Shown here in pieces: positions 7,141-57,122 of a stretch of 64,000 nucleotides of DNA (positions within the stretch are counted from its first letter, which is position 1; every line of letters starts with the position of its first letter). Both the position numbers and the translations under genes were made by a program. Below the pieces are notes generated by a model that was not told the DNA's origin, did not search any database, and saw only the letters and a program-made list of their open reading frames with translations. Origin of the DNA: an uncultured virus (IMG/VR IMGVR_UViG_3300035093_000027). Lineage: Duplodnaviria; Heunggongvirae; Uroviricota; Caudoviricetes. The stretch lies in the IMG/VR virus record IMGVR_UViG_3300035093_000027. One strand, given 5' to 3'.

Positions 7141-7518
7141 ATGACGGAGCTCGCCGACTACCGCGGCCATCGCCTCGCGTCCAAGCGCCCCATGAACCGG
7201 GCCGCGCTCGCGCAGCAGAACCCCGTCAGCGTCGTCGGCGGAGGCGCGACGGTCGGCGGAGGCGCAGGCACTGGATCCGGCGTTTCGCAGTCGCCTGGCC
7301 AAGGGCAGCAGCGGTTCTACTACTACAACAACTACCAGCCCTGGTACTGGCCGTCGTACAACAACTGGTACGGCTACTACCCGTGGTGGCAGGGCTTCAA
7401 CTACGGATGGCCCGTGGGCTACGGCTTCAACTCGCCGGTGTACTGGCCGCAGTGGCCGCAGCAGTGGTGGCCCGGACCGTACGCCTACGCGCCGCGCCGC
7501 GTCGTCGCAGTCACGTAG
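7141..7518 (+). CDS. Leader-NP protein with Tyr/Trp/Pro/Asn/Gln low-complexity domain
   Basis: SKRPMNRAALAQQNP, then a Gly-rich linker and YYYNNYQPWYWPSYNNWYGYYPWW... Confidence 0.75.
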   Translation: MTELADYRGHRLASKRPMNRAALAQQNPVSVVGGGATVGGGAGTGSGVSQSPGQGQQRFYYYNNYQPWYWPSYNNWYGYYPWWQGFNYGWPVGYGFNSPVYWPQWPQQWWPGPYAYAPRRVVAVT

Positions 7519-7565
7519 CACGAGAAGCAGCCGAGGGCGCGAAGCCCAAGAAGAGGTGAACGACG

Positions 7566-7925
7566 ATGCGACTTCGACCCAAGCGACCCATCCTCCGTGC
7601 CCAGCTCGCGGCGCAGCAGAACCCGACGGGCTACACGACCGAGCCGACTGGATCGATCTGGTGTTGTCGGGTCGATGAGAACTGGAACTGCGAGAAGTAC
7701 TGCTACAACTTCGCCGGTGCTCCGGCTCCGGGCGGTCGCGCTCCGTCGCAGGGCCTCGGTCTCGCTGCACAAACCGGCCGAACGCATGCAACGATCTCGT
7801 GCCCACCGGGAACGCACGTCGCTGGATCTTCGCCACACGAGTACTGCGCGGACAACGGAAGCGGAGGAACATCGCTCCTCGGATGGCAGGCTACCGGACC
7901 GTACGGTACGACGCCCGGAGGCTGA
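7566..7925 (+). CDS. Leader-NP small Cys-rich protein
   Basis: AGAGGTG RBS; MRLRPKRPILRAQLAAQQNP leader, then six Cys. Confidence 0.75.
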   Translation: MRLRPKRPILRAQLAAQQNPTGYTTEPTGSIWCCRVDENWNCEKYCYNFAGAPAPGGRAPSQGLGLAAQTGRTHATISCPPGTHVAGSSPHEYCADNGSGGTSLLGWQATGPYGTTPGG

Positions 7926-7926
7926 G

Positions 7927-8178
7927 CTACGTAGGGGACGCTGCGGCCTGCGCGACGATCTCGGTCGACGACTGGCTTCGCGCTGGCGCGAGATCGCGTG
8001 CTTCGACCTCGGCGATCAGATCGATGAGCGCGGCCCGTCGACTCTTGAAACCCTCGCGGCGCATGCAGTGACCGGCGATCGTCGACTCGACCATCCCCTT
8101 CGTCTGCTTCCATCCCCAGCGCTTGGTGCGATCGTACCGGTTGAACGAGATCGCAAATCCATCGGGCTGCTGCTTCAT
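7927..8178 (-). CDS. Hypothetical protein
   Basis: GGGAG RBS; convergent with the previous gene. Confidence 0.5.
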   Translation of the reverse strand: MKQQPDGFAISFNRYDRTKRWGWKQTKGMVESTIAGHCMRREGFKSRRAALIDLIAEVEARDLAPARSQSSTEIVAQAAASPT

Positions 8179-8241
8179 GACGGGACTCCCCGGCGCGTCG
8201 CGCCGTCCTTCTTCAAGGCGGCCAAGGACGCGACGTGGATC

Positions 8242-8421
8242 TCACGCCGGCACCTCGACCCATTCGGCGTTTTCGGACAGCGCGCGGAGCTCGAGCACGA
8301 CGGTCCGATCCGACTTGCGAATCTCGGCACGCTCGCCGATCTGCAACGGCGGGTTGGCCCGGCGCGCAAGCCCTACTAGATCGTCCACGCTGTCCACGAC
8401 GAAACGTATTCTAGGCAGCAT
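8242..8421 (-). CDS. Small hypothetical protein
   Basis: ATG 8 nt after a TACCAT -10-like box. Confidence 0.45.
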   Translation of the reverse strand: MLPRIRFVVDSVDDLVGLARRANPPLQIGERAEIRKSDRTVVLELRALSENAEWVEVPA

Positions 8422-8503
8422 TCTCGACGATGGTAGTCGAGATGCACGCGCGATCACGTTCTTCGTCCACAGCGATCCGCGTGGCGTCACGCCACGTTGC
8501 ACG

Positions 8504-8638
8504 TTCGGAGATCTTCGGACAGATCAGGCAAAGCTCTTCGGACAGATCGGTCGAAGTGACACCGGATGTTCGGACACGAGCAGCTCGGGCTTCGGACAAA
8601 ACGAGGCAATGCTCTTGCTCAAGTTCGGACAGATCGGT
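8504..8638. repeat. Helically phased direct-repeat array (TTCGGACA), iteron/operator-like
   Basis: TTCGGACA at 8514, 8537, 8569, 8591 and 8624, plus TTCGGAGA at 8504; spacings 10, 23, 32, 22, 33. Confidence 0.8.
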
Positions 8639-8649
8639 ACAACCGAGGT

Positions 8650-11798: not shown

Positions 11799-11816
11799 AC
11801 CAAGGGACGACGCTAG

Positions 11817-12641: not shown

Positions 12642-13582
12642 GCGCTCGCTTCAAGCCCTCAGCAACGACCATCCGATCTCGCGGTGCATCCGCGCCGATC
12701 CAGGTGGTCGACACCAATGTCCCGCGCGCCGTCGGCGACGCGCCGACGATCCTGACCCGAGGCCGTCGGCGAGGCTTCGCCGCGACCGTGACGACGCCCG
12801 TCGCCAAGACCGTGAAGGCCGAGGCCCTACTGGGCCACGCCGCGATCCGGCAGCGTGAGCATCGTCAGTCGGGCAAAGACGACGACGTCAACGTCGTCGA
12901 TCCGAACAAGGTGCGCGGCGAGGCGATCGCGGTCGTGGTCAGCAAGCGACCCGGGATGGCCGCGTACGTCGGTCGCATGCTCGCGTGGCAGAGCCTGCGT
13001 CCCACGCACGTCGTCGTCTGCTCGTCGGTGCGCGACTACGACACCAAGCCCATCGAGGAGGCGCTGCCGGGGATCCCGGTCGTGTTCGTACGCGCCGATG
13101 GGGCTGCCAGCCTCGGCGAGCTCCGCAACTCGGCGATGCAGGTGGCGAGCTCGCTGTCGGACAAGGCGATCATGTGCACGATCGACGACGACGACTGCTA
13201 CGGCGTGCACTACCTCGCCGGGATCATGCACGCGTGGCACCGCCACCCGATCGCGCTGGTAGTCGGCCTCGGCTCGTTCGAGACTCGCAGCGTCGACGGC
13301 CCGCCCGCGGGTCCACTGACGCAGCGCTACCGCGTGCGCTCGGGTCTGCGTGCGCCGATCAGCGGCGCGACGATCTCGATTCCGGTCCGGGTGTGGAAGG
13401 AGCGCCACGACCTGCGGTACGCCGCAATCGGTTGCGGCGAGGACATCGAGTTCCTCAAGCGCGTGCAGGCCGAGAACCGGGTCGCCGCGGCGGCGTTCGG
13501 CGACTTCGTCGCGCTGCGCTATACCGACCCCGCGCACGCGCACACGTCCGTCAACCGCGGGATCCCGGGAGTCGCCCCTTGA
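12638..13582 (+). CDS. Glycosyltransferase family 2
   Basis: SLGELRN, TIDDDDCYGVHYL, GEDIEF. Confidence 0.8.
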   Translation: MSARFKPSATTIRSRGASAPIQVVDTNVPRAVGDAPTILTRGRRRGFAATVTTPVAKTVKAEALLGHAAIRQREHRQSGKDDDVNVVDPNKVRGEAIAVVVSKRPGMAAYVGRMLAWQSLRPTHVVVCSSVRDYDTKPIEEALPGIPVVFVRADGAASLGELRNSAMQVASSLSDKAIMCTIDDDDCYGVHYLAGIMHAWHRHPIALVVGLGSFETRSVDGPPAGPLTQRYRVRSGLRAPISGATISIPVRVWKERHDLRYAAIGCGEDIEFLKRVQAENRVAAAAFGDFVALRYTDPAHAHTSVNRGIPGVAP

Positions 13583-14457
13583 AACGCAAGCTGCGCCGCG
13601 CCTCCGGACGCCCGATCGTCGTCGACAATCGGACTCCGGGGCTTCAGCTCACGCCCGTACGCTCCCAGGCGCAGGCCGGACCGCGCGTCCCGGCTCCGCC
13701 CGCAATCGCACGGATGGCGAGCTCGGAGGCACAACGCGCGCTGGTGAGCGATCTCGTGCAGTACGTCTCGGACCACCCCGTCGCGCGCGACCAGCCGCTG
13801 GTCGCAGTCGTGGTGCCCGTGCTGCGGCGACCCCACCGGGTCGCACCGCTCGTGCAGTCGTTTCGGGCGACGACCGACCCGAGCGAGGCGCGGCTGTACT
13901 TCGTGGCGCAGGCCAGCGACATGGCGGAGATCGACGCGATCCGCTCGGCCGGCCTCGAGCCCATCATCGTCGGCGACGTCGACCAGAGCTGGGCGCGCAA
14001 GATCAACCGCGGCTACGAGCGCACCACCGAGCCATGGATCCTGCTCGCGGCCGACGACCTGCGGTTCCACCCGCGCTGGCTCGATGAGGTGCGCGCGATG
14101 CTCCTGACGTTCCAAGGCGTGATCGGCACCAACGATCTCGGCAGCCCCGACACCGCCAACGGCAACCGGTCGACGCACCCGTTCGTGAACCGCGCGTACG
14201 CGGCGATCTGCGGCACAGCCGACGAGCGCAACAAGATCTGCCACGAGGGCTACCACCACAACTTCCCCGACACCGAGCTCGTCATGACCGCGAAGGCTCG
14301 CGGCATGTTCCGTCATAGCCCGCGCTGTTGCCTCGAGCACCTGCACCCGTTGTGGGGCAAGGCGCCGCACGACGAGATCTACAAGCTCGGCATGAGCCGC
14401 TGGTACGAGGATCAGGCGCTCTTCTACCGCCGCGTCGCGGCGCACGGATTTCAGTGA
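13579..14457 (+). CDS. Glycosyltransferase family 2
   Basis: VAVVVPVLRRP, KINRGY, LLAADDL, HNFPDTEL, EHLHP; TTG start overlaps the previous stop. Confidence 0.8.
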   Translation: MKRKLRRASGRPIVVDNRTPGLQLTPVRSQAQAGPRVPAPPAIARMASSEAQRALVSDLVQYVSDHPVARDQPLVAVVVPVLRRPHRVAPLVQSFRATTDPSEARLYFVAQASDMAEIDAIRSAGLEPIIVGDVDQSWARKINRGYERTTEPWILLAADDLRFHPRWLDEVRAMLLTFQGVIGTNDLGSPDTANGNRSTHPFVNRAYAAICGTADERNKICHEGYHHNFPDTELVMTAKARGMFRHSPRCCLEHLHPLWGKAPHDEIYKLGMSRWYEDQALFYRRVAAHGFQ

Positions 14458-15149
14458 TGGGCGTCAAGTTTCTCAACCAGGGCAATGCACGAGGCTCGAG
14501 CGTGCCGGCCACCCCCAACGTCGGATCGCGCGCGCTGTACGCGCCGAGGATGCGGATCGCCGCGCAGGCGCCCGACACGAAGATCTTGCTGTCGGTGCTC
14601 GTGCCCACCGTGCCGGGCCGCGAGCACAAACTCGCCAAACTGCTCGCCGTGCTCGACTCGCAGATCGCCGCGCGCTCCGACGTTGAGCTGCTCGTGCTCC
14701 GCGACAACCGAAGCATGACGATCGGCGAGAAGCGCAACCGGATGCTAGCGATCTCCCGCGGCGCGTACGTGGCGTTCGTCGACGACGACGACGAGGTCAT
14801 GTCCGACTACGTCAGCTCGATTGCGCCGCGGCTCGCCGAGTCGCCAGACGTACTGTGCTTCGACGTGGTGGTCCACGGGCACGGTGCGCCCAAGACCTGC
14901 TACTACAGCCTGGCGATGAGCGACCAGAACCTGCCCGATCGCTACCATCGCAAGCCGAACCACCTCATGGTGTGGCGCCGCGAGCTCGCGGTGGCGTGTC
15001 CGTTCCCCTCGGTCAAGACCGGAGAGGACACGGCGTGGGCCAACCAGATCTGCTCACGCGCGACCAAAGAGATCCACGTGCCGCGCACGCTCTACAGCTA
15101 CAACTACGACCCAGCGGACAACTCCGCGACGCCGCGCCCAGCGAAGTGA
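14457..15149 (+). CDS. Glycosyltransferase family 2
   Basis: LSVLVPTVPGR, IGEKRN, YVAFVDDDD, GEDTAW. Confidence 0.85.
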   Translation: MGVKFLNQGNARGSSVPATPNVGSRALYAPRMRIAAQAPDTKILLSVLVPTVPGREHKLAKLLAVLDSQIAARSDVELLVLRDNRSMTIGEKRNRMLAISRGAYVAFVDDDDEVMSDYVSSIAPRLAESPDVLCFDVVVHGHGAPKTCYYSLAMSDQNLPDRYHRKPNHLMVWRRELAVACPFPSVKTGEDTAWANQICSRATKEIHVPRTLYSYNYDPADNSATPRPAK

Positions 15150-15159
15150 GGGATCGTCC

Positions 15160-16413
15160 ATGATCACGAGATCCGAGTGCCGCCTGTGCGGCAAGGCCAT
15201 GACCGACGTCCTTAGCCTCGGCGACATTGTGCCCGTCGACTTCATCGCGCCTGGCGCAGACGTGCGACCCGCTTTGCCGCTGACGCTCGCGCAGTGTGGC
15301 GAGTGCAGCCTCGTGCAGTTGCGGCACATGTTCGATCGCGACAGCCTGTTCCGCCAGTACTGGTACCTGAGCGGCCTGAATCCGACGATGGTCGATGCCC
15401 TGCGCGACGTCGTCGAAGGCGTGAAGGCCCGTGTCGCGCTCGAGGCCGGAGACGTCGTCGTCGACATCGGCGCCAACGACGGGACGCTGCTCGACCTGTA
15501 CGACGAGTCGCTGCACAAGATCGGCTTCGATCCCGCGCTCAACCTCGAGCAGAGCGCGAAGGCGTCGTGCGACCTGTTCGTGAACGACTACTTCGAGACG
15601 TCCGATGTCGATCTGCCGCCGGCCAAGGTGATCACGAGCATTGCGATGTTCTACGACCTCGACGATCCACGCGCGTTCCTGCGGCGCATCGTCACGTCAC
15701 TGCGCAAGGACGGGATCTGGGTCATGCAGATGACCGACCTGGTCAGGATGCTGCGCGCCAACGCGTTCGACAACATTTGCCACGAGCACGTCTGCTACTA
15801 CTCGCTCGCGGTCTTCGCCAACCTCGTGGCCGAGTACGGCCTGCGCGTGTTCGATGTCGAGTTCAACGATGTCAACGGCGCGAGCGTGCGCGCGTACATC
15901 GGGTGGAACGGCGCCCACGAGGTCAACTCGCGCGTCGCGGCCGCACTCGCCGACGAGGCGGCGTACCTGTGCGAGGACGACGCCATCGTGGCGTTCGCGG
16001 AGCGCGTCCGCACTGGCAAGGAGAGTCTGCTGCGGTTTCTCCGGTCCGAGCTCGCCGCCGGCAAGGTGTTCCACGCGATGGGCGCGAGCACGAAGGGCAA
16101 CACGCTGTTGCAGTTCTACGGACTGTCGCGCGCGCAGATCCACGTGGCCGCCGAGGTGAGCCCCGCGAAGTTCGGCCTCCTGATGGCTGGATGCGACGTG
16201 CCCATCGTGCCGCAGGAGGAGTCGCTCGCCCGGCGCCCCGATTACTACCTGGTGCTGCCCTGGCACTTCATCGACTTCCTCGCGCGCAAGCACGAGGGAT
16301 ACATGGCCGAGGGCGGTGCGCTCATCGTGCCCTTGCCCGCGCCGGCGCAGTACACCCGCGACGGTGCGCAGACGGCGGTGCGCCTGCTCGGCTCCAACTT
16401 GGGAGACGGCTGA
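15160..16413 (+). CDS. NDP-hexose C-methyltransferase (Zn-binding, Methyltransf_13/14 type)
   Basis: CRLCG, LAQCGECSLVQL, VDIGANDG, NICHEHVCYYS, GASTKGNTLL, PDYYLVLPWHF. Confidence 0.92.
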   Translation: MITRSECRLCGKAMTDVLSLGDIVPVDFIAPGADVRPALPLTLAQCGECSLVQLRHMFDRDSLFRQYWYLSGLNPTMVDALRDVVEGVKARVALEAGDVVVDIGANDGTLLDLYDESLHKIGFDPALNLEQSAKASCDLFVNDYFETSDVDLPPAKVITSIAMFYDLDDPRAFLRRIVTSLRKDGIWVMQMTDLVRMLRANAFDNICHEHVCYYSLAVFANLVAEYGLRVFDVEFNDVNGASVRAYIGWNGAHEVNSRVAAALADEAAYLCEDDAIVAFAERVRTGKESLLRFLRSELAAGKVFHAMGASTKGNTLLQFYGLSRAQIHVAAEVSPAKFGLLMAGCDVPIVPQEESLARRPDYYLVLPWHFIDFLARKHEGYMAEGGALIVPLPAPAQYTRDGAQTAVRLLGSNLGDG

Positions 16414-16880
16414 TGGCCGACATCGCGACCAAGAGCACCGGCCAGCTCCTCGACGAGCTGGTCACCAACGCGTTCAAGACGGTGCACGCCGCCGCCGAAG
16501 TGCGCGATGCCTCGGAGTTCTTGACGCGTCACACCCTACTGAGCGCTGCCATCGATCGACGCTTCGAGAAAACCGTGGCCGACTCAGTCGCGGTGGCCTG
16601 CTCTGTCTTGTTCCTGACGCCCGAGCAGGCGTGGCACGAACGGATCCTCGGACTGCCGCTCACCGCCGCTCTCCATGCCGCGTTGCTCAACTTGTGCGAG
16701 CACTCGTGTGCCACGTGGATCCACCAAGAGCACGTGATGAGCGGCGTGTCCGATGCTCTCGTGGCGAAGGCCGGGCGCGCCGCGCAGCAGTGCAACGCGC
16801 TGCGGACCGAGGCGATGCGGCGGATCGATCAGCTTCTCGGCGAGGCCGAGATCACCATCACGACCAAGACGTATGGCTAA
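16413..16880 (+). CDS. DUF4254-like helical protein
   Basis: STGQLLDEL...WIHQE...NALRTEAMRRID pattern; coupled start. Confidence 0.55.
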   Translation: MADIATKSTGQLLDELVTNAFKTVHAAAEVRDASEFLTRHTLLSAAIDRRFEKTVADSVAVACSVLFLTPEQAWHERILGLPLTAALHAALLNLCEHSCATWIHQEHVMSGVSDALVAKAGRAAQQCNALRTEAMRRIDQLLGEAEITITTKTYG

Positions 16881-18273
16881 GGCAGCGTGCGCGCACCCGG
16901 GCAAGATGGGCGACGCGCTGTACGCCCTGCCGGCGATCCGCGAGCTCGCCGAGCGCCACGGACCGGTCGACTTCTACACGAGCTCGTACTGCGCACCGAT
17001 GCGCCGTCTCTTCGAGGCGCAGTACTGCGTCGAGCGCTTCATCGTCGCCGAGGACTACGTGCTGCAGGACTTCGGCTGTGGCGCGCGACCGTGGACGGTT
17101 CCGATCCCCGAGGGCTACGAGGCCGTCTACCAGATGGGCTTCGAGCACTACCCCGAAGGCCCGATCCCCGACTACATCGCAACGCACGTCGGGCTGCCTG
17201 CGGGGCTTCCGATCCACTACGACTTCGATCTGCCCGACACGGAGATCGACGGTCCGTACATCGTCACCGCTCCGCGCGGGTACACGGAGTACTCGCACGT
17301 CTTCCGGGCGATCGCCGACCACTGTCCGATTGCAGTGGTGGAGATCGGGGCCGCCGGCGACGGCACCGGTTCTCCGCGCGCGATCGACAAGACGGGTCTC
17401 GACATGCTCGAGGTGCTGCCGTGGCTGTGTGGGGCTCGGGGCTTCTACGGGCTGCACTCCGCGATGCTCGTGCTCGCCAACGGCTTTCCGATCCCCAAGG
17501 TGGCGCCGCAGGGGCGCTGGGACATGCGGCACGTCGTGCGATCGCCGTACAACCAGTACCCCGTCGAGCCTGACGGCAACGAGATCCTCAAGCGACTGGG
17601 AGTGACGATGACGTACTGCAAGACCCTCGATCCCTCCGACTACGAGCCCATCCACGAGACGCAGCACGCCGACAGCATGAAGCGGATCGTCGGCACCTAC
17701 GGCGGCCGCGCCGAGCACCCACACCGCGCGTGGGAGTACGGGATCATCCTGCACGCGCTGCGCGAGCACGGATGCAAGTCGATCCTCGACGTCGGCGGCG
17801 GCGGATCGGTGTTCGCACCGGCGGCTTCGTGGGTCGGCATCGAGGTCACCGCGGTCGACCCCGAGGATTACGCCGCATGGGTGGCGCAGCAGAACCGCAT
17901 CGTCGCAGCGCACCATCCCGGCTCACCCGCGGTGCAGTACGTCCGCGAGGACTTCATGGCGTACCAGGGCGGCGAGTTCGACGCGGTCACGTGCGGCAGC
18001 GTGCTCGAGCACGTGCCCGACGACTTCGCGTTCTTCGCCAAGCTCGCCAGCCACGTTCGCGTCGGCGGACTACTCGCGCTCACGGTCGACTTCTGGCCCG
18101 ATGCCGCGCGCAAGAGCCCCGACCACCTGCGCACGTACAACGAGGATCGGCTCTCGGCGCTGGCGCAGTCGGTGCCCGGCTTCGAGACGCTGGGCCCGCT
18201 CGACTACGCCGATCGTGGCGCGCACGTCTACATCTACACGTTCGCGAGCCTCATGTTGCGGAGGGTGTCGTGA
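16873..18273 (+). CDS. Fusion of GT9-like glycosyltransferase and class I SAM methyltransferase
   Basis: N-terminal [19 protein letters not shown]-terminal [31 protein letters not shown]. Confidence 0.75.
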
Positions 18274-19268
18274 AGCGGGCGCTCGTCACAGGCATCACTG
18301 GACAATCGGGAAGCTTCCTCGCCGAGTTGCTTCTCGCCAAGGGCTACGTGGTCTACGGACTGATCCGACGCACGTCTGGCGTCACTACCGGCCGCATCGA
18401 GCACCTGCTCCGTGGAGATCATCCGATTCACCTCGTGTACGGCGACATGGCAGACGGTCTGTCGCTGCTCAACGCCGTGGAGATCGCCGAGCCCGATGAA
18501 GTCTACAACCTCGCGGGACAGAGCCAGGTCGGCGTGAGCTTCAAGATGCCCGACTACACCTGCGACGTAGTCGGCGCGGGCCCGATCCGTCTGCTCGAGG
18601 CTCTGCGCACGCTGCGATCGAAGGCACGCTTCTACCAAGCGTCGACGAGCGAGCTCTTCGGCAAGGTCGTCGAGACGCCGCAGACCGAGCGCACGCCCTT
18701 CCATCCGCGCAGTCCGTACGCCGCTGCAAAGGCGCAGGCCTTCTACGCGACGGTAAACTACCGCGAGGCGTACGGCATGTTCGCGGTCAACGGGATCCTC
18801 TATAACCACGAAAGCGAACGTCGCGGCGAAGAGTTCGTGACTCGCAAGATCACGCGCGCTGTCGCTCGGATCCATCTCGGCCTGCAGGAGTCTTTCGCGC
18901 TCGGCAACCTCGAGTCCAAGCGCGACTGGGGCTACGCCGGCGACTACGTCGAGGGCATGTGGAGGATGCTGCAAGCCGACACGCCCGACGACTACATCCT
19001 CGCGACCGGGCAGACGCACAGCGTGCGGGAGTTTGTCGATCTCGCGTTCGGGTGCGTCAGGATCAGCAACTGGGAGAAGCACGTGGTGCGCGACCCGGCG
19101 CTCGTGCGGCCCGCCGAGGTCGATCTGCTGCTCGGCGATGCATCCAAGGCCGAGCGCGAGCTCGGCTGGAAGCCGAAGGTCACGTTCGAGGAACTGGTGC
19201 GCATCATGGTCGAACACGACGTCGAGCGCGAAGCCGCGGCGAAGCATGCCGCCGAGGCTGAGTCGTGA
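18270..19268 (+). CDS. gmd: GDP-mannose 4,6-dehydratase
   Basis: [73 protein letters not shown]. Confidence 0.97.
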
Positions 19269-20182
19269 CCGCGCTCTTCCTGAACCACCAGACCGAGCGC
19301 TGCGGCGTGTACCAGATGGGCCGCCGGATCGGCCACACGCTGCGCGATGCCGGCGTCGCTAGCTACCTCGAGACGTGGGATCTGGGCACCGCGCTCGCGG
19401 TGGTACAGCAGCAGCAACCGGCGGTCGTGATCTACAACTGGCACCCGTCGACGCTGCCGTGGGCGCCGACGCTGATGGCCCGCTTCCCCGAGCGCAAGCA
19501 CGTCGGTCTGATCCACGAGATCGCCCCGGACGCTCCGACGGTCGGCGCCGATCTGTTCCGCTACCGGATGATCTGCGACCCGACGTTCCCGGTCGACGGC
19601 CGCACCACGTTCCGGAGCGTGCGCCACGTCCCGCGCGCGCAGCTCGAGACGCCCAGCAACGATCGCTTCACGGTCGGATCCTTCGGATTCGCCGTCGGCG
19701 GCAAGATGTTCGCGACCGTCGCCCATGCCGTGGGCGCCGCGTTTCCTGGCGCGCGTGTGCGCCTGCGGATCCCCTCGGCCCAATACGGTGACGCCGCGGG
19801 CACGCTCGCGCGTCAAGCCGCAGACGCTGCTCGAGCGGTCACGGTCGGTGGCGTCAGCGTGGAGGTAGAGCACGAGTTCCTCGGCGAGGACGCGCTGGTG
19901 CGCTGGATCGGCGCCAACGACCTGAACGTGTTCTTCTACGAGCCCAACGGCGGCCGCGGGATCTCGAGCGTCATCGACTACGCCATTGCGGGCCAGCGCC
20001 CGATCGCGGTGAACCAAAGCCAGATGTTCCGGCACGTGCACGACGTACTGGGCGCGTGGCCGAGCATGTCGCTTCAGGGGGCGCTGTCCCTGAGCAAGCA
20101 CGCCGTACCAGCTCTCTACGACGCTTGGACTCCTGAGCGCCTCGCTCGTGACTACGCGGATATGATCTCCGCACTGGGGTGA
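19265..20182 (+). CDS. Putative GT-B (GT4-like) glycosyltransferase
   Basis: [28 protein letters not shown]; cluster context. Confidence 0.6.
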
Positions 20183-22983: not shown

Positions 22984-24747
22984 GTGACGGGCCGGATCCG
23001 CGCTACCAACCCTCAGGCCCGCCGCGAGTACGTCGACGCCGTCACGGGCGCCCGCACCCGCGCGGGAGTCCCCGGCTCGAGACGCAGCGGTCGACTCGTC
23101 ACCCGCGTGCGCCCGCGCGCGGACGCACCCTTCGAGGTGCTCGCGATCGATCCGGAGGATCTCGACCCCGCGCGCGACACGTTCGGGATCGATCCGGCCA
23201 CGACCAAGGGGCTACGCGAGCGATCTCGCTCGCAAGCTCGAGGGCGCGAGCCCAAGCCGATGCGCCGCGATGCCGATCTCGACCTCGGACGCGCAGGCGC
23301 GTCGACGACGTTCGCGTCGGGGCGAGCCGCCGCCGACGCGTTCATGCGCAACAACGCGTCGTTCTTCGACCACCCGCTGTTCGAGTCCACCGATCCGCTC
23401 GACATCACCCGCGACTTCATGGACGGCATCGAGGTCCGCAGCGGCAAGGGTCACAAGCGGCTGGCCGACACCCCGCGCGGCGACGAGATCCTCGGCGGCG
23501 GCGGGCGGGGCCACTCCGCGGTCGCGCGCGAGATGCTCGTCTACCTCATGGGGCAGGCCGGCGGCTCGAGGCGGTGGCGCGACGTGCCGTGGATGCTCGT
23601 CGACAGCTACGTCGACCGGATCGCGGTCGCGATGCAGGAGGAGGCGAAGCGCCAAGGGCGAGCAGCTCCGAGCCGTGGCCTGACGTGGTACCCGCTGTCG
23701 TCGGGCGTCTACCAGCCCGAGGAGGTCGTCGCGCTCGCCGTCGATGAGCTCGGCGAGGCCAAGGCGCGCAAGCTCGCCGCTTGGCTGAACAGCCAGTCGC
23801 TCTACGAGACGTCCGACCGGCTCGAGCACGTGCTCAAGCCCGTGAAGGGCGCCAAGGGCAAGACGGCCCGGCGCGCGCGCAAGTGCCTCTCGAAGGACGA
23901 CAGGGCCACAGTGCGCCGACGGATCCGGGAGATCCGCGAGTGGGCAGCATTCCCCGAGCAAGTCCCGAGCTGGGCGTGCGTGTCGAGCCGCGAGACGGAG
24001 TCGACGTCGGTGCCCGTCTGCATGTACCCGGCGCTCGAGGACGAGATCCGGCGTCTGCTCGCCGCGTGCGACGTCCCGTACGACTCGGACTGGCCGACGC
24101 GCGAGCACGCACGCCTGTGCGCCTCGGGCAGCACGGACACGTCCGGCCTACCGCCGCAGCCGTGCCCGGGCGACCACGACGATGACGACGAGGAGTTCGA
24201 GTCGCCCGTCGACGACGAGCTCGACCTGCCGTGGGAGAACCCAAGACGACGACACAACCCGCTGCAGTTCGCGAAGGTCAACGAGTATGGCGTACGCTTC
24301 GAGTCCGGCGTTCCGGTGACGTTCGAGTTCATGCGCAACACCGAGCGATCGCCCTACTTCGGATCGACGTACCAGCAAGACATCGAGCCTGCTGGCCGCT
24401 ACGTCCTGCACCAGCCTCCATCATCGGTGCAACAAGCGCCATGGGAGTTCGGAACGACGACGTTCAGAAAGCCGCTGGTCCTCGCGTTCAGCTCCGGAAA
24501 CGAGACGCGATACGACGAGCGCAGTTGGAAGGCGCAACTGCAGAAGGCGTACGGCAAGACCGGCAAGGCGCTCTCGCGTGCGCTTCAGAAAGACGGCTAC
24601 GACGGGATCGTCACCGTCGAGATGTCGCGAAGCGGAAAGCCCTTGGGCACCAGCGAGATCGTCGACCTGCGCGTGGTGAAGAACCCTCGCAAGAAAAACC
24701 CGTCGCCGCGCGCGACCACCATGACCCGACGACTGGGGAGGCTGTGA
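22984..24747 (+). CDS. NP-delimited multidomain protein; C-terminal ADP-ribosyltransferase-like (polyvalent-type) domain; C-terminal tag
   Basis: ENPRRRHNP linker, FRKPLVL...LQKDGYDGIVTV...SEIVDL; ends NPSPRATTMTRRLGRL*. Confidence 0.7.
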   Translation: MTGRIRATNPQARREYVDAVTGARTRAGVPGSRRSGRLVTRVRPRADAPFEVLAIDPEDLDPARDTFGIDPATTKGLRERSRSQARGREPKPMRRDADLDLGRAGASTTFASGRAAADAFMRNNASFFDHPLFESTDPLDITRDFMDGIEVRSGKGHKRLADTPRGDEILGGGGRGHSAVAREMLVYLMGQAGGSRRWRDVPWMLVDSYVDRIAVAMQEEAKRQGRAAPSRGLTWYPLSSGVYQPEEVVALAVDELGEAKARKLAAWLNSQSLYETSDRLEHVLKPVKGAKGKTARRARKCLSKDDRATVRRRIREIREWAAFPEQVPSWACVSSRETESTSVPVCMYPALEDEIRRLLAACDVPYDSDWPTREHARLCASGSTDTSGLPPQPCPGDHDDDDEEFESPVDDELDLPWENPRRRHNPLQFAKVNEYGVRFESGVPVTFEFMRNTERSPYFGSTYQQDIEPAGRYVLHQPPSSVQQAPWEFGTTTFRKPLVLAFSSGNETRYDERSWKAQLQKAYGKTGKALSRALQKDGYDGIVTVEMSRSGKPLGTSEIVDLRVVKNPRKKNPSPRATTMTRRLGRL

Positions 24748-31948: not shown

Positions 31949-32145
31949 TGAAGCGCTACATCGTGATCGGAGGCATGAAGATGCCGATCGACAGCGAGCA
32001 AGATCAAGCGATCGCGCGCGAGGTCATGACCGGCGGCGGAATCGAGAACTGCGTGATCTGGGAGCGGCTCGAGGTCGAGACGCCTGCTGGTGAGACGACG
32101 ACGTCGTGGGTCGCGCTCGAGGAGCGCTTCTTACTCAACCCATGA
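31948..32145 (+). CDS. Hypothetical protein
   Basis: TAGGAT 6 nt before ATG; coupled. Confidence 0.55.
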   Translation: MKRYIVIGGMKMPIDSEQDQAIAREVMTGGGIENCVIWERLEVETPAGETTTSWVALEERFLLNP

Positions 32146-35100: not shown

Positions 35101-35665
35101 TCTTGGCGTAGTTGAACTGGCTCGCCGTGAACGAGATCGCGATGCCGGACGGTGCACCGCTAGGACCGAGGATCTGCAGGCCTTGGATCCCGGAGCGGTT
35201 GAAACCGGCCGCGAACTGGAAGACCGGATCGCCCGAGGGCAGAAACGAGTAGATGAGCGACGCGTTGCCGTCGGCACCGTCGACGCCGAAGAGCACGACG
35301 TTGGCCGGGATCGTGACGGTCGAGTAGATCCCGAAGCCTTCGCCCGCGCCGACGTCGACGTTGGGTACGAGCACCCATGACGTGCCTTGGGTGTTGGCGG
35401 CGGCAGCCGCGAGCGCAGCGGTGAACGCAGCGGTGCTGTCGACGAGCGGGTTGGTCGACGCGCCGTAGTCGGTGACGTCGAGCCACAGCGTCGCGCCCGG
35501 AGGACCGACCGGACCGGGGCCGCCCGGTGCACCTGCGGCGCCTGGAGCTCCCGGCGGACCGGGCGGGCAGTCACAGGAGTCGCCGCTGCCTGAAACAGAT
35601 CCGGGGTTGATGTCCGGGCAACTGAAGCCGAGACATGCCTCCCCTTGGGTCACTCGGATCGACAC
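32135..35665 (-). CDS. Spike/tailspike-like protein: collagen-like repeats and two pectate-lyase-like beta-helix modules
   Basis: GPPGAPGAAGAPGGPGPVGPPG; LDVTDYGA..DSTAAFTAAL and NARQWGA..DNSAALQAVID..GGVVYIPAGSY. Confidence 0.85.
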   Translation of the reverse strand: MSIRVTQGEACLGFSCPDINPGSVSGSGDSCDCPPGPPGAPGAAGAPGGPGPVGPPGATLWLDVTDYGASTNPLVDSTAAFTAALAAAAANTQGTSWVLVPNVDVGAGEGFGIYSTVTIPANVVLFGVDGADGNASLIYSFLPSGDPVFQFAAGFNRSGIQGLQILGPSGAPSGIAISFTASQFNYAKNLQIWYHEIGIDFSDGVTPFSAYNLVEQCEVNNSTEVGIRALQSANANAIIGGRVFFTRNVGNTAIALQIADARALSISGGLALEDYNVGMQIGGAPSFSMTGCWLEKGATIPLGADFEILSTFEESALFEGGILFDGNHHADPWPLADTNWNARQWGALPANADNSAALQAVIDYASDPLNGGVVYIPAGSYQFATALTNPACVPIVCTGELVFTGSGAHALTYGQVASNTDAPSTLQSVLNIRRNTQDWTDAFAGLRLLNVDELQAIVSVEDFECGLLLQGDGTGTSYNQIQAQRFFGNRVGVRFHAVGIGWSNENTIQGGRYSSLQATSSALNMAGIEFVCDSTFSCNGNKILGPSFELHNVGAGFTSAIHGEFTVGSVSGRSNVIENTRIESTDYWISGEGVRDNVIGINYLGPNEGIPADLLNANTPADLLVLIQNIFDTNLVLAGSSDPIRYATFNKNNCIAVGANLWRPARGVGWNRATFSFLNAVTGAISDDRVTISSGDPIGFALDFRNVTRDYTRILTLKAIVRATGGRFAVVCWDAAGVRLTSADDCSLGFNGAVNYYRSGGDMTPDSAETLVSFGESVAFVFVGIATGTLAAQIEQFDVFGLGLADIRPLVGVADLNFLSAVPPNIGVYDGGDPISNVIPTLPAALPVPQAATLYPAGMVVRNILATTGTVGSWVYDGTAFVVTPTTVVLGSSTVSGSLSIDKPDAGTADINLLNIGVLRWRLRENTSENFLVESFDSAGVAIGTPFQITNSSGLAQFGNSVLMAANLTFSASAAVIAIGDSAVAGNARLSFRKGSGNNMQFAEWMVGTTASDSRWGEQFNSSTDRVGFVFDASGNLLTVRPYTWRYNVNNGRAGLALNRLWCDLGTSLVNGDVATNNMGAGATATVAANGKDMRGEITVTVGTAPAANPTVTLTFTNGTWTTAPGATVIFVGGTGYVAGTVTRLTRTVSATQIVVTFVGTPLVGETYIIYFSLMG

Positions 35666-41280: not shown

Positions 41281-41676
41281 TCAGCTCGCCGGCATCGTGA
41301 CCGTCGCGCTAGAAATCCCGATACGATCGCCAGCCGTCACGGCCAACGTGTTGAGCTGAAGGTCACCACCACCGCCGGTCGCGGTGATCGTGAACTCGGC
41401 GACCGTCGTGTTGTCGCGGTTGCGAAGACGTCCGACGGCCGCGGTGCCGGTGTTGTTGGCCGAGACGTCGTCGGAGATGGCATTGGCCGTCGCGACGCCG
41501 ACCGCTGCAGCGCCGAAGGCGGGGTTGCTGAAGTTGTTCTCGAACAGCAGTGAAGCGAACGCGGCGGAGTAGCCCGCCAGATCGCCGGTGGCATCGGTGG
41601 TACCTACGTCGATGGCGTCGACGAACACATCCGCCATCCCGTTGCGCACCGTGGTCGCGATGTTGTTGATGGCCAT
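41281..41676 (-). CDS. Conserved small phage virion-type protein
   Basis: VRNGMAD...NPAFGAA...GTAAVGRL...GGGGDLQLNT...ISSATVT pattern. Confidence 0.75.
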   Translation of the reverse strand: MAINNIATTVRNGMADVFVDAIDVGTTDATGDLAGYSAAFASLLFENNFSNPAFGAAAVGVATANAISDDVSANNTGTAAVGRLRNRDNTTVAEFTITATGGGGDLQLNTLAVTAGDRIGISSATVTMPAS

Positions 41677-51744: not shown

Positions 51745-51816
51745 TCGACAACCCGTTGTGCCGGCGCGCAATGCCGCGCGTCGGCGCTGATCATCCACCT
51801 GAAAGGACCGAACATC

Positions 51817-53598: not shown

Positions 53599-53608
53599 AA
53601 TGCCGCCC

Positions 53609-53854
53609 ATGAAGGTACGGATCCGATCGATTCGATCGATCAGCGTCAGCGGCCGGCTGTACGCTCGGCTCGTCGCCCATGTGGGGCGCGGCAACATCGC
53701 GGCCTTCGTGGGCGCGACCATCGACGAGCGGATGGATTCGCTGGGACAGCCGATCCCCGACAAGGTGAGGCCGGTCGTCCCGCGGCGCATCACGAGCGAG
53801 AGCATCATCTCGCAGAACATCACGTTCTCGTCGCGCGGACGCGACGAGTCGTGA
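53609..53854 (+). CDS. Small basic hypothetical protein
   Basis: TAGAAT 7 nt before ATG. Confidence 0.5.
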   Translation: MKVRIRSIRSISVSGRLYARLVAHVGRGNIAAFVGATIDERMDSLGQPIPDKVRPVVPRRITSESIISQNITFSSRGRDES

Positions 53855-54893
53855 TCCGACCGTGCTCGAGCATCTCCTTCAGATCCTGTAGACCCTTCAT
53901 CTGATGCTGACGTACGCGCTCGCGGCTGATCTTCAGGTCGGCCCCGATCTCAGCCAGCGTTTGCTCGGGTGCGCCGTCGAGTCCGAAGCGGCAGCGAAGC
54001 ACGTGAGCGAGCTTGTGATCCACCTGGGGCAGCAGCACCCGTAGCCGGCGGAGTTGCTCGCGATTCATCATCTGCACGTCGATGGGTGCATTGGGGTCCG
54101 GTACATCCATCGCACCGTAGGATCGACCGAGGCCGTCGATCCCGTTGACGTCGAAGCTGATCCCCGGCTTCGTGTCTCGCTCGATTTGACGGATCCGATC
54201 GGCGCCGACCCCCATGAGCTCAGCCACCTCGTCGTCGCAGATCGGCTCGCCTCGAGCTTCGGCTGCTGCGCGATGCTTGAGGATCTCTGCGCGAACGATG
54301 CGGGCGTTGACGGGCACACGTACCGTCCATCCCCGATCGTCGATGCCACGCTGGATCTCGTGGCGGATCCAGTGCAACGCGTACGTCGAGAACTGCACTT
54401 TGTAGGCCGGATCGAAGCGATCCACCGATCGGAACAGTCCCATGTTTCCGTCGGCGACCATGTCCTCGTAGTGGATGTGGATCGACTTGAAACGGCGGGC
54501 CACGCCGAAGACGAGCCGCAGGTTGACCTTCACGAGCTCGGCACGGGTGCGCACGAGCGCCTCGACCTTCCACCGGGCCTCCGTCGCAGTTGTGCCGGCG
54601 AACTCGCCCACGATCGTCCGGGCCAGATCGAGGGCCTCGGTCGCGACCGCCAGAGACTTGGCGACCGCCTTGATCGCAGCGGGGCGCTCGCGCGTCCGCT
54701 TGCCGTGTAACGGTTCGAGCATGGTAGCGCCGTCGTAGAGCGACTTGGAACGCTCGAGCGTGTGCTCGAACGCCACCTCGAACAGGTGCCGCCACAACGC
54801 CTCCTTGTCGCGTACAAACGCTGTGAAGGCTTCCGATTGGACGACGGGGTCGAGCCGAGGATGACGCGCGACATCGTGTGTGTACGCTCGCAT
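53820..54893 (-). CDS. Sigma-70 family RNA polymerase sigma factor (RpoD/RpoS-like, divergent)
   Basis: NLRLVFGVARRF, DGNMGLFRSVDRFDP, FSTYALHWIR, TVRVP, RFGL...TLAEIG..SRERVRQ; start position approximate. Confidence 0.93.
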   Translation of the reverse strand: MRAYTHDVARHPRLDPVVQSEAFTAFVRDKEALWRHLFEVAFEHTLERSKSLYDGATMLEPLHGKRTRERPAAIKAVAKSLAVATEALDLARTIVGEFAGTTATEARWKVEALVRTRAELVKVNLRLVFGVARRFKSIHIHYEDMVADGNMGLFRSVDRFDPAYKVQFSTYALHWIRHEIQRGIDDRGWTVRVPVNARIVRAEILKHRAAAEARGEPICDDEVAELMGVGADRIRQIERDTKPGISFDVNGIDGLGRSYGAMDVPDPNAPIDVQMMNREQLRRLRVLLPQVDHKLAHVLRCRFGLDGAPEQTLAEIGADLKISRERVRQHQMKGLQDLKEMLEHGRITTRRVRATRT

Positions 54894-54977
54894 CACCCGC
54901 GCGGAACAGGGCGCGGCACCGCGCTGCGAGGATGAGAGTCGACGAGGCTGTGGCACCGGATCCAGTGGACGGAAAAC

Positions 54978-55349
54978 GTGTTCCCGTGTCAAGTTCGGAA
55001 GGTGCCGAGCAACCAGTCTACCCGCGCCTCGGATCACGACGTCGCGCATCCCATCCTGCTCGGAATCTTCACGCATCCCGAGGCTGCTACATGCATGTGC
55101 GTGGCGCCGCGCTGCGAAGATTCGGCGATTGGGTTTGCGACGTTTCTGTGGCGCGGCGTGATCGTGTTGCCGTTGTGCCACGACCATGGCGTGGCCGCGG
55201 GGCAGCGCGATACCGTCCCGATGGGCGCACAGCGACAGCAGGTGTCGTCGGACATCGCCGCGCTTCCGGCCAAGGTGATCCGCAACGGCGCAGTCGGCCA
55301 GCGCGACGCGCTGTCGAGCTGGACCATGTGGCGGAGGCACTGCGGATGA
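54978..55349 (+). CDS. Hypothetical Cys/His protein
   Basis: CMCVAPRC...LCHDH; start uncertain. Confidence 0.4.
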   Translation: MFPCQVRKVPSNQSTRASDHDVAHPILLGIFTHPEAATCMCVAPRCEDSAIGFATFLWRGVIVLPLCHDHGVAAGQRDTVPMGAQRQQVSSDIAALPAKVIRNGAVGQRDALSSWTMWRRHCG

Positions 55350-55353
55350 GCGG

Positions 55354-55563
55354 ATGAGCGCCGCTGATCGTGGCCTGCTCGATGCGCTCGTCGGATGGTG
55401 GGATCTGGTGGCGCGCTCATGGCCGATGCACGACGCGGCCTGTTGGCAATGGCTCGTAGACGAGGGCTACGTCGCGTTCGCGCCCGAGAACCGGATCTAC
55501 CCGCTGCCCCGCGGGATCAGCTTCATCCACCGCAGCAACGCTCGTCTCAGCAAGGATCCATGA
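55354..55563 (+). CDS. Small hypothetical protein
   Basis: Coupled to the next gene. Confidence 0.5.
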   Translation: MSAADRGLLDALVGWWDLVARSWPMHDAACWQWLVDEGYVAFAPENRIYPLPRGISFIHRSNARLSKDP

Positions 55564-55797
55564 TGCCCACGCTCGACATCGACCATCTCTTCACATACCA
55601 ACCGCCCACCGCCGAGCAGAAGGATCACTACGACACGCTCACGGCGTTGTTCAAGCAACTCGGCCACGCGATCCAGTTGCACTGTCCCGACTCCGCCGAG
55701 CGCCGAGCGGATGCTCGCGATCCGCAAGCTGCAGGAGTCCAAGCTGTGGGCGAACACCGCGATCGCAGTGACGGGCGCGGTTAAGCCGAACGCCTAA
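55560..55797 (+). pseudogene. Acb2/Tad1-like helical-hairpin protein frameshifted by a 7-bp tandem duplication
   Basis: FTYQPPTAEQ..Y...CPDSAER | MLAIRKLQESKLWANTAIA are in different frames; GCCGAGC is duplicated at 55695-55708. Confidence 0.75.
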
Positions 55798-55932
55798 GGA
55801 CGCCTCGCTCGCGCTCGAGGCTCTGTACAAGCAACTCGGCCACGCGATCCAGGAGATGGTGACGCCGAGCGCACACGCGCAGATCTGGGCACGGGCACCG
55901 GTTTTCGAGGTGGAGATCCGCTCGCTGGGCAT

Positions 55933-55945
55933 GCTGGTAGGGTCC
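55933..55945 (+). promoter_or_regulatory. Conserved promoter motif GCTGGTAGGGTCC
   Basis: TAGGGT ends 9 nt before ATG 55953. Confidence 0.75.
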
Positions 55946-55952
55946 ACGAACC

Positions 55953-57122
55953 ATGCTTCGGATCCGGCCCAAGCGACCCATCTTGCGCGCTCAGCTTGCC
56001 GCACAACTTAACGGTGGGACTGCTCGGCGCATGAGCAATCCAGCCGAAACGGTAGACATGCCGGCCAGAACTGGGCCGCTGCCGCAAGACTGGTGGACCA
56101 GCAACTTCCACCCCGATCCGCCGATGTGGGGATCCGAACCCACGAACGAGCCTTGGGTGCAGGTCGTCAACACGCCCGAGACGAGCTCGGGTGACGGTGT
56201 CGTCTTCGATCCTCAACGTCCCCAACAGCGCGGCATGATCGTGAAGGTCATCGATGTCTGGACGGCCTTCGGCGACACGCAGATGGCCACCGTGGATGTT
56301 CCGTCGGGAGCGGGAGACGGCTGGCCGCGACAGGGCGTACCTGCGGGCGACGTGGAGAAGTTCTGGGTGGCGGCATCGCAGTCGGCAACTAGGCCGTCAA
56401 ACAGCAGTTGGCGATGGGTGCAGATCACGAAGACCCCAGGTTTCGGACCGACGATCGACGGTCAGTCCACCGAGCGAGGGCGAGGTATTCTCTTCCAGCA
56501 GAGAGCATCTGGGCCGGTGAAGCAGGTCGGATCCGTCATCGTGTATCAGATGGCGCATGATCCTTCGGGGATGCGCGCGTCCGTCTCGAGGCTGGAGTCT
56601 GTACCGACGGGAGTCACAGCCGATCGCAAACCCGTGTGCACGGAATCGCTGGCGCTGTACGAGAACCGCTACAGCGTCTCTGGCTGGCCTGAAGAGCACC
56701 GGAACAAGCGGTATCTGTGCGGCGTGCCTGAGCCTACCAAGGACTATCAGTACTGCGGGCAAGGCGACAGATTCTCGCTGCCTTCGCTGATCTCCAACCC
56801 CGATGAGGATCCTCCGTTCCCGCCCGCAGGCCAAGGAACTAAGCGCTACTGCGGAAAGCTGGTGGAACTTCCGAAGGGCAAGTGGTACGCAGCCACGTTC
56901 TTCGATCACGCCCCTTCGCCGAAGTCGTTCATGTGGGTGAGGATCATCGACGTTCCACCCGACTACGACGGGAAGCACTTCGGACGGGGTGAGCTGTACA
57001 AGCGAAGCCGTTTTGGTGGTTCGATCAGCCGGAAGGAAGTTCTCATCGCGGAGATCGATCCTGGCGCATCGCCGCGAACTCGTATCGTGCCGAACGACAA
57101 TCCTTGGTCTGCGGGCGAGTGA
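55953..57122 (+). CDS. Leader-NP protein (same leader as 7566..7925)
   Basis: MLRIRPKRPILRAQLAAQ..RRMSNP; further NP motifs internally and near the C-terminus. Confidence 0.8.
   Translation: MLRIRPKRPILRAQLAAQLNGGTARRMSNPAETVDMPARTGPLPQDWWTSNFHPDPPMWGSEPTNEPWVQVVNTPETSSGDGVVFDPQRPQQRGMIVKVIDVWTAFGDTQMATVDVPSGAGDGWPRQGVPAGDVEKFWVAASQSATRPSNSSWRWVQITKTPGFGPTIDGQSTERGRGILFQQRASGPVKQVGSVIVYQMAHDPSGMRASVSRLESVPTGVTADRKPVCTESLALYENRYSVSGWPEEHRNKRYLCGVPEPTKDYQYCGQGDRFSLPSLISNPDEDPPFPPAGQGTKRYCGKLVELPKGKWYAATFFDHAPSPKSFMWVRIIDVPPDYDGKHFGRGELYKRSRFGGSISRKEVLIAEIDPGASPRTRIVPNDNPWSAGE

What the first reader, a model, noticed from the sequence alone, without database searches (positions are those of the whole stretch)
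7141..56050. Portable N-terminal leader RPKRPILRAQLAAQ..NP shared by genes 48 kb apart
Seen: 7566 begins MRLRPKRPILRAQLAAQQNP and 55953 begins MLRIRPKRPILRAQLAAQLNGGTARRMSNP (14 identical residues with many synonymous changes). 7141 has the variant SKRPMNRAALAQQNP. The downstream parts are unrelated (Cys-rich peptide, 360-aa protein, aromatic low-complexity domain). It has no hydrophobic core, so it is not a Sec or Tat signal. Both loci follow the conserved promoter motif. Inference: a second address label ending at the NP site, like a RiPP leader or packaging peptide. The 55953 gene looks like a self-contained promoter + leader + cargo cassette dropped among early genes.
Basis: partly seen in the sequence, partly recalled or inferred. 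Interest (0 to 1): 0.8.

Follow-up and report, generated by a model that had tools for sequence, protein, structure and literature searches.

The report
Portable leader peptide on phage proteins
An uncultured high-GC phage and a few relatives in metagenomes put the same roughly 20-residue basic peptide in front of many unrelated small late proteins; it is most likely an address tag read by a conserved phage component, but what reads it is not known.

Summary
ORFs 7566..7925 and 55953..57122 share RPKRPILRAQLAAQ at their extreme N-termini. ORF 7141..7518 carries a variant of it. Four DNA copies of the 13-codon core (two in the window, two in metagenome contigs) differ at 3-10 of 39 bases, and every difference is synonymous, so the peptide is translated and under strong purifying selection.

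Beyond the leader the three window proteins show no detectable similarity. Searches found the core on 14 of the 21 related proteins I compared, all from metagenomes. They carry at least seven cargo types. The commonest is a new C-terminal four-cysteine mini-domain.

In one relative the core sits inside a protein, between two modules. Asn-Pro follows within 20 residues in 10 of 14 cases, so it is common but not universal.

Gene 55953 lies behind an exact copy of a 13-base promoter-like motif that also precedes a tailspike gene and a virion-protein gene. No RiPP enzymes, transporter or protease were found in the window.

Best reading (about 0.4): a virion-assembly address tag comparable to the phage T4 capsid targeting sequence, possibly clipped near Asn-Pro. 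The rivals are a pro/export leader of released disulfide peptides and an uncleaved docking peptide. Function is untested.

The parts
7108..7120 (+). Variant copy (TCTGGTAGGCTCT) of the promoter-like motif. TAGGCT lies 22 bases before the ATG at 7141, with GAGAGG in between.
7141..7518 (+). Gene for a 125-aa protein. It has a variant leader (..ASKRPMNRAALAQQNP, residues 1-28, bases 7141-7224), then a Gly-rich stretch, then a Trp/Tyr-rich low-complexity tail.
   Evidence: P0002 is the source's own gene call from 7141; 38.5 bits
7566..7925 (+). Gene for a 119-aa protein. The canonical leader is residues 1-20 (bases 7566-7625), followed by a six-cysteine cargo. The cargo contains GLGLAAQTG, a second motif shared with P0007 and L001. 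A GAGG ribosome-binding site lies 9 bases before the ATG. The source's gene caller did not call this gene.
55933..55945 (+). Exact copy of the 13-base promoter-like motif GCTGGTAGGGTCC. TAGGGT ends 9 bases before the ATG, so the mRNA would be leaderless or nearly so.
55953..57122 (+). Gene for a 389-aa protein. The canonical leader has a 12-residue insertion before Asn-Pro (residues 1-30, bases 55953-56042). The 359-aa cargo has no relatives.
3775..4295 (+). Promoter-like motif (3775-3787, one mismatch) and ORF 3804..4295. The ORF carries the four-cysteine 'CWW' mini-domain behind a diverged N-terminus (MIRVVSGRAEIRGRVTFP). The 3' end of the ORF is uncertain.
   Evidence: (P0010, 63% identical)
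55811..55852 (+). 41-base partial duplicate (35 of 41 bases identical) of bases 55635-55676 of the Acb2/Tad1-like gene. It lies just upstream of the 55953 promoter motif and is a likely recombination scar.

Best explanation
The leader is a portable recognition peptide. Its consensus is M-F/L-R-M/I-R-P-K-R-P-I-L-R-A-Q-L-A-A-x-N-P. It is basic and has no hydrophobic core.

A small lineage of uncultured high-GC phages fuses it to many unrelated, fast-changing small proteins. In this window at least gene 55953 sits behind the same promoter-like motif as virion genes.

I think it most likely works like the capsid targeting sequence of phage T4 internal proteins. A conserved assembly component would bind the invariant core (K-R-P-I-L-R-A/S-x-L) and so bring whatever is attached into or onto the virion. 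The tag, and the linker modules behind it, may then be clipped by a maturation protease at or near Asn-Pro.

Shown here:
- The peptide is translated and under purifying selection.
- It sits on unrelated cargo, in the window and in other contigs.
- Gene 55953 shares the promoter-like motif with virion genes.

Inferred, not shown:
- Binding to an assembly partner.
- Virion location of the cargo.
- Any cleavage.
For: 1. Translation and selection. Four DNA copies of the 13-codon core differ at 3-10 of 39 bases with no amino-acid change. None of 50,000 random 9-change trials was fully synonymous.

2. Portability. The core is present in 14 of the 21 proteins examined. They carry at least 7 cargo types: the CWW domain (7 proteins), w7566, w55953, w7141, P0009, P0007, and P0008/L001.

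3. The core is far better conserved than anything attached to it, and it is conserved across contigs. That fits a conserved reader.

4. Position independence. In L001 the core lies at residues 92-100 of a 316-aa ORF that is seen on 3 contigs. This fits a linear motif read by a protease or adaptor rather than a signal that needs a free N-terminus.

5. Co-regulation. The exact 13-mer GCTGGTAGGGTCC occurs 4 times. It precedes 55953, the 1176-aa tailspike-like gene (32135..35665, minus strand), the PHROG 'virion structural protein' gene (41281..41676, minus strand), and the 28648 operon that includes an M23 peptidase.

6. Asn-Pro follows the core within 20 residues in 10 of 14 proteins. It is kept even when 12-14 residues are inserted (55953, P0006), and it recurs at module borders in P0003, P0014 and P0015.

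7. Precedent. [quoted passage not shown] In the giant phage SPN3US several propeptides contain multiple motifs matching the protease cleavage motif; for one of them (gp53) at least three were shown to be cut (PMC10052503, passages).
Against: No head gene, scaffold or prohead protease was identified in the window (PHROGs; Pfam). The proposed reader is therefore unseen, and the other half of the 130,310-base contig could not be read.

The leader has no Glu-type cleavage motif like T4's.

4 of 14 leader proteins (P0011, P0012, P0013, P0017) lack Asn-Pro soon after the core.

The cargo looks extracellular rather than DNA-associated. Cysteine counts are even in 10 of 11 cargos (two of those have none), most cargos are near neutral or acidic, and they are rich in Pro, Gly and aromatic residues. 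The precursor-like layout of leader, spacer and conserved C-terminal four-cysteine domain also fits a released peptide.

AlphaFold2 gave the leader no confident structure (pLDDT 40-52).

Gene 55953 lies 3 kb from a tyrosine integrase, and its counterpart in L001 lies likewise. That is a typical place for accessory 'moron' genes.
Confidence: 0.4

Rival explanations
1. The leader is a pro-/export leader of released peptides, like a bacteriocin or RiPP leader. The genes would encode precursors whose leader and spacers are removed by a dedicated peptidase. This would free small disulfide-bonded peptides, such as the C-terminal four-cysteine domain, which act outside the cell after export or lysis.
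For: Many members are short (55-107 aa). They have a conserved leader, a variable spacer and a conserved C-terminal core that ends the protein.

The core domain is predicted as a small three-stranded unit with pLDDT 84-89.

Cysteine counts are even in 10 of 11 cargos.

An Ala/Gly-rich stretch (LALAAG, LGLAAAG and similar) precedes the core.

Leader genes occur as a tandem pair in both the window and L002.
Against: No modifying enzyme, RiPP recognition domain, C39 peptidase, ABC transporter or protease was found among the 91 window ORFs scanned with Pfam, nor in the L001/L002 ORFs scanned.

The same leader also sits on cargos of 359, 148 and 137 aa.

The genes are phage genes, and at least 55953 lies behind the motif shared with virion genes.
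Confidence: 0.25
2. The leader is an uncleaved docking peptide. It would stay attached and plug variable binding modules (the Cys-rich domain, the aromatic-rich tail, the 359-aa cargo) onto the outside of the virion or onto a lysin catalytic subunit, as conserved N-terminal anchors do for tail fibres.
For: The pattern of a conserved N-terminus with a variable C-terminus is the classic mosaic of phage fibre and adhesin genes (established knowledge, recalled).

The linkers are rich in Pro and Gly, and the folded domain sits at the far C-terminus.

The promoter-like motif is shared with the tailspike gene and with the operon that holds an M23 peptidase.

The tailspike-like protein itself has a Cys-rich N-terminus.
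Against: A core of about 14 residues is very short for a stable anchor.

No partner has been identified.

The internal copy in L001 and the recurrent Asn-Pro at module borders are not explained by this reading.
Confidence: 0.15
3. The leader acts during translation as a nascent-chain signal, for example an arrest or skipping element at Asn-Pro, or an aid to translating leaderless mRNAs. On this reading it is not an address.
For: The 55953 mRNA would be leaderless or nearly so.

Asn-Pro preceded by a conserved stretch loosely recalls the eukaryotic viral 2A elements (recalled, not tested).

The internal copy in L001 lies between two modules.
Against: Three leader genes (7141, 7566, L002 gene B) have ordinary ribosome-binding sites.

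The 2A hallmark of Asn-Pro-Gly-Pro is absent in all 14 proteins.

Asn-Pro is missing soon after the core in 4 of 14, and its distance from the core varies from 0 to 18 residues.
Confidence: 0.05

Closest known systems
Capsid targeting sequence (CTS) of phage T4 internal proteins IPI-III, and the variable internal-protein loci of T-even phages
   Same: A short conserved N-terminal peptide sits on otherwise unrelated, fast-changing small proteins of a phage (PMC3012670, passages).
   Different: There is no sequence likeness. The T4-type Leu/Ile-x-Glu cleavage motif (recalled) is absent. The phage is not T4-like: high GC, has an integrase, has its own sigma factor. The cargo is rich in cysteine and proline and is not small and basic. 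The tag also occurs inside a protein. The protease and the packaging are both unseen.
Propeptides of head proteins cut by the prohead protease in giant phages (SPN3US gp245 substrates)
   Same: N-terminal propeptides can contain several cleavage motifs. The authors suggest they may have targeting roles like those of T4 propeptides (PMC10052503, passages).
   Different: Those propeptides are not one shared sequence. Here a single 14-residue core is invariant across proteins and across contigs.
Double-glycine bacteriocin leaders and RiPP leaders of the 'one leader, many cores' type such as prochlorosins (recalled)
   Same: A leader without a hydrophobic core is conserved while the cores vary. 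The precursors are short, and their cysteine-rich C-terminal cores end the protein.
   Different: There is no Gly-Gly site after the leader. No peptidase-transporter or modifying enzyme was found in 64 kb. Some cargos are 137-359 aa long. The genes belong to a phage and share a promoter-like motif with virion genes.
Encapsulation peptides of bacterial microcompartments and encapsulin cargo-loading peptides (recalled)
   Same: Short portable tags that load unrelated cargo into a protein shell.
   Different: The sequence is different, no shell partner has been identified, and the context is a phage.

Membership tests
T4-type capsid targeting sequence | One short N-terminal peptide shared by otherwise unrelated phage proteins | tested here: met
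   The core is in 14 of 21 proteins and on at least 7 cargo types.
T4-type capsid targeting sequence | The tag ends in the prohead protease motif (Leu/Ile-x-Glu in T4, recalled) | tested here: not met
   No Glu occurs in the leader. Asn-Pro follows instead, in 10 of 14.
T4-type capsid targeting sequence | A prohead protease and scaffold core are encoded by the same phage | not testable with these tools
   None was found in the 64-kb window. The rest of the 130,310-base contig is not held.
T4-type capsid targeting sequence | The cargo is found inside the capsid with the tag removed | not testable with these tools
   This needs virion proteomics.
RiPP precursor | A modifying enzyme or leader-recognition (RRE) domain is encoded nearby | tested here: not met
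   Pfam scans of 91 window ORFs and of L001/L002 ORFs found none.
RiPP precursor | A short core peptide follows the leader | tested here: inconclusive
   True for the members of 55-107 aa, but the same leader also carries cargos of 137-359 aa.
Sec or Tat signal peptide | A hydrophobic h-region, plus a twin-arginine motif for Tat | tested here: not met
   The sequence itself shows this: the stretch I-L-R-A-Q-L-A-A is interrupted by Arg and Gln, and there is no twin-arginine consensus.
Double-glycine (peptidase-transporter) leader | A Gly-Gly, Gly-Ala or Gly-Ser cleavage site ends the leader, and a C39 peptidase ABC transporter is present | tested here: not met
   The leader ends in Asn-Pro, and no such transporter is in the window.
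2A-type translational skipping element | An Asn-Pro-Gly-Pro end (recalled) | tested here: not met
   The residues after Asn-Pro are T, A, V, P, Y and R. None of the 14 has Gly-Pro there.

The most novel reading that the evidence does not exclude
The lineage uses Asn-Pro as a general processing mark, cut by an unknown phage protease or by self-cleavage of the Asn-Pro bond. Modular precursor proteins would be cut at these marks into many small products. These would include disulfide-bonded mini-domains from the leader family, and protamine-like Arg-rich peptides from the repeat protein at 2..559, where five basic units are each flanked by Asn-Pro. The invariant K-R-P-I-L-R-A-x-L core would be the handle that brings the precursors to the processing or assembly site. 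This would be a phage polyprotein and peptide-maturation system with no described counterpart.
Probability: 0.12. Interest if true: 0.85.

Novelty: new variant of a known kind. Interest (0 to 1): 0.58.

Why it matters
If the tag loads cargo into or onto virions, it marks a whole set of fast-evolving phage proteins (candidate ejected, adhesive or anti-defence factors) in a lineage known only from metagenomes.

It would also be a compact, portable tag of about 14 residues that could in principle load foreign proteins.

The work defines a new four-cysteine mini-domain and a set of short linear modules that are shuffled between genes.

The Asn-Pro marks give a concrete, testable idea about proteolytic maturation outside the T4 and giant-phage models.

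Tried and rejected
**Database scans that found nothing**
- Leader DNA patterns found nothing in viral contigs or in genome contigs.
- The CWW-domain alignment found no relative in viral contigs.
- No match in the cultured-phage collection for the 389-aa protein, for 6 kb of the window or for the 549-aa ORF. The 587-aa ORF gave only a weak partial match.

**Protein searches**
- The 389-aa protein has no relative besides its own record.
- The 119-aa ORF was not even called by the source.
- The ESM Atlas search for the 389-aa protein gave only sub-threshold rows.

**Structure**
- The Foldseek search of the P0005 model against the PDB found no match at E<=0.001.
- PDB sequence searches found nothing for L002's downstream ORF, and nothing better than E=0.24 for alignment A7.

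**L002 downstream ORF.** I recalled a Cys...His...Asp transglutaminase-like pattern in it. Pfam gave no support and no homologue is present in the window, so I dropped the idea.

**Host.** TnpB relatives are only 32-41% identical and come from Actinomycetota and Chloroflexota, so the host is unresolved.

**Records not held.** No whole genome is held for the window, and the record behind L001 is not held.

**Sequencing runs.** One DNA holder was listed, which may be the source of this DNA. No RNA holder was listed, and no reads were laid.

**Literature.** A full-text search for the leader string found 0 papers.

**Earlier notes.** There are none for this genome or this sequence.

**tblastx.** The first run was too noisy. 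It was repeated with a 45-bit cut-off.

**Asn-Pro in the whole window proteome.** 67 of 475 Asn residues (14%) are followed by Pro, against a Pro frequency of 6.9%. I judged this too weak to use as evidence.
Full report
**What is in the sequence**

The window is 66% G+C and phage-like. It holds the following:
- tail fibre, tailspike and virion-protein matches;
- a sigma-70-type factor at 53820..55340, minus strand;
- a tyrosine integrase at 60524..61738;
- a TnpB at 5922..7052, minus strand;
- a sugar-biosynthesis cluster.

The source contig is 130,310 bases long. No whole genome is held for it.

ORF 7141..7518 (125 aa) has the variant ASKRPMNRAALAQQNP. Both canonical leaders begin at the first start codon after an in-frame stop. 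A leader HMM scores only these three of 845 frames in the window (41.4, 41.1 and 38.5 bits; next best 6.8).

**Is the leader translated?**

Yes. Four DNA copies of the 13-codon core R-P-K-R-P-I-L-R-A-Q-L-A-A were compared: 7566, 55953, L001 and L002. They differ pairwise at 3-10 of 39 bases with no amino-acid change. In 50,000 random trials of nine changes, none was fully synonymous.

Genes 7141, 7566 and L002 gene B have ribosome-binding sites at the right distance from the start codon.

The source's gene caller started 55953 at Met27 and did not call 7566 at all. The leader is therefore missing from public protein sets for those two genes.

**Are the proteins full-length homologues?**

No. 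With the core removed, blastp at E<=1e-3 gives no hit among the three window proteins. None of them has a Pfam or PHROG match.

**The family outside the window**

A degenerate DNA pattern found three metagenome loci:
- L002 repeats the window's tandem pair. Gene A has a variant leader (MIRPRRVMNQMNRAALMAAGANP). Gene B has the canonical leader on a 58-residue Cys-rich cargo.
- L001 (172-kb contig) and L003 carry the same 316-aa ORF. In it the intact core lies inside the protein, at residues 92-100 between two Cys-rich modules. A decayed second copy, ending QQLAAQNP, lies further on. The same TGGTAGGGT motif precedes the ORF.
- L001 is syntenic with window 55953-61738. The SLOG-like protein matches at about 50% identity and the integrase also matches.

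A word/HMM search with the leader alignment found 8 proteins with E<=10 among the 8000 candidates scored. An HMM of leader plus Cys domain, run against 1.84 billion representatives, found 11 with E<=0.001. One of these, P0018, is a repeat-containing protein with a lipoprotein-like N-terminus; I set it aside as a likely chance match.

In total, 14 of the 21 proteins examined carry the core (13 canonical, 1 variant). Their cargo falls into at least seven groups. The largest group (7 proteins) is a C-terminal domain of about 33 residues with four cysteines that ends the protein. AlphaFold2 predicts it as three short strands with pLDDT 84-89, while the leader is unstructured (pLDDT 40-52). The same domain also occurs behind other N-termini: P0010, P0014-P0016, P0019, and window ORF 3804..4295.

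Other short modules are shuffled among members:
- P-L-P-A-P-Q-F-R-L-P-V-R-Y-A-P-P;
- D-L-G-L-A-A-Q-T-G, also present in 7566;
- P-Q-Y-Y-P-H-F-R-A-Q-R-R-A-D-A.

All members come from metagenomes. None was found in viral contigs, in genome contigs or in the cultured-phage collection. P0012 and P0003 are both recorded on a contig of 172,251 bases, so the relative probably also has at least two leader genes.

**Asn-Pro**

Asn-Pro follows the core within 20 residues in 10 of 14 proteins. P0011, P0012, P0013 and P0017 lack it there. It is retained after 12-14-residue insertions in 55953 and P0006. It also marks module borders in P0003, P0014 and P0015. It is frequent, but it is not a defining feature of the leader.

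**Promoter and cassette**

TGGTAGG occurs 9 times against 1.43 expected. At least 7 of the 9 copies lie 15-31 bases before a start codon, which implies leaderless or short-leader mRNAs.

The exact 13-mer GCTGGTAGGGTCC occurs four times (gene identities). It precedes:
- gene 55953;
- the tailspike-like gene;
- a PHROG 'virion structural protein' gene;
- the 28648 operon.

Just upstream of the 55953 motif is a 41-base partial duplicate of the adjacent Acb2/Tad1-like gene. This supports the idea of an inserted promoter-leader-cargo unit.

**Interpretation**

An invariant short peptide on unrelated, rapidly changing phage proteins, expressed with virion genes, most resembles the T4 capsid targeting sequence. 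A review passage describes T-even internal proteins as diverse proteins sharing only that sequence (PMC3012670). The giant phage SPN3US shows that propeptides can contain several cleavage motifs (PMC10052503). I give this assembly-tag reading about 0.4.

Against it:
- No reader or protease has been seen.
- There is no T4-type cleavage motif.
- The cargo looks extracellular: cysteine counts are even in 10 of 11 cargos, and the cargos are rich in Pro, Gly and aromatic residues.

That cargo character keeps two rivals alive: a released-peptide precursor (0.25) and an uncleaved docking peptide (0.15). The RiPP reading lacks any enzyme in the 91 window ORFs scanned with Pfam.

Earlier notes of this scan describe comparable shared leaders in other phage genomes, read the same way. 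Those notes are unchecked and are not independent support.

**Verdict**

The mechanism is open. The finding is a new variant of a known kind.

Noticed in passing
window 2..559 (+), open at the 5' end: An Arg-rich repeat protein. It has five units of the form E-N-P-(8 to 10 Arg/Lys-rich residues)-N-P-D-E-V, and 13 Asn-Pro in 186 residues. Similar N-P-basic-N-P units occur near the C-terminus of ORF 22984..24747.
   Followed up: partly
window 3775, 7108, 22345, 22967, 28631, 35682(-), 41695(-), 55933: A promoter-like motif, GCTGGTAGGGTCC, which has the form of an extended -10 (TGn-TAnnnT). It lies 15-31 bases before start codons, which implies leaderless mRNAs. It may be read by the phage's own sigma factor.
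   Followed up: partly
window 55395..55797: An Acb2/Tad1-hairpin-like gene (Pfam E=8.7e-4, below the curated cut-off). It appears split by a frameshift near 55690: the text ...CPDSAER continues in another frame as AERMLAIRKLQESKLW...
   Followed up: partly
window 5922..7052 (-): A TnpB (OrfB_IS605 plus Cas12f1-like TNB domain) ends 56 bases before the 7141 promoter-like motif. The leader locus therefore lies beside a mobile element.
   Followed up: no
window 12985..20182: A sugar-nucleotide and glycan gene cluster in the phage: GDP-mannose 4,6-dehydratase, a C-methyltransferase with a zinc-binding domain, other methyltransferases and glycosyltransferases.
   Followed up: no
window 53820..55340 (-): A phage-encoded 506-aa sigma-70-family factor (regions 2 and 4 clear, region 3 weak) lies about 600 bases from gene 55953.
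   Followed up: no
L002 871..1365 (+): The ORF after the leader gene pair has a Cys...His...Asp spacing that I recalled as transglutaminase-like or cysteine-peptidase-like. Pfam and PDB searches gave no support, and no homologue is present in the window.
   Followed up: yes
L001 2979..3629 (+): A protein with a lipoprotein-like N-terminus and an acidic, Ser-rich linker lies next to the leader gene in the related contig. An IS-type transposase-like ORF lies at 188..1447 (-).
   Followed up: no
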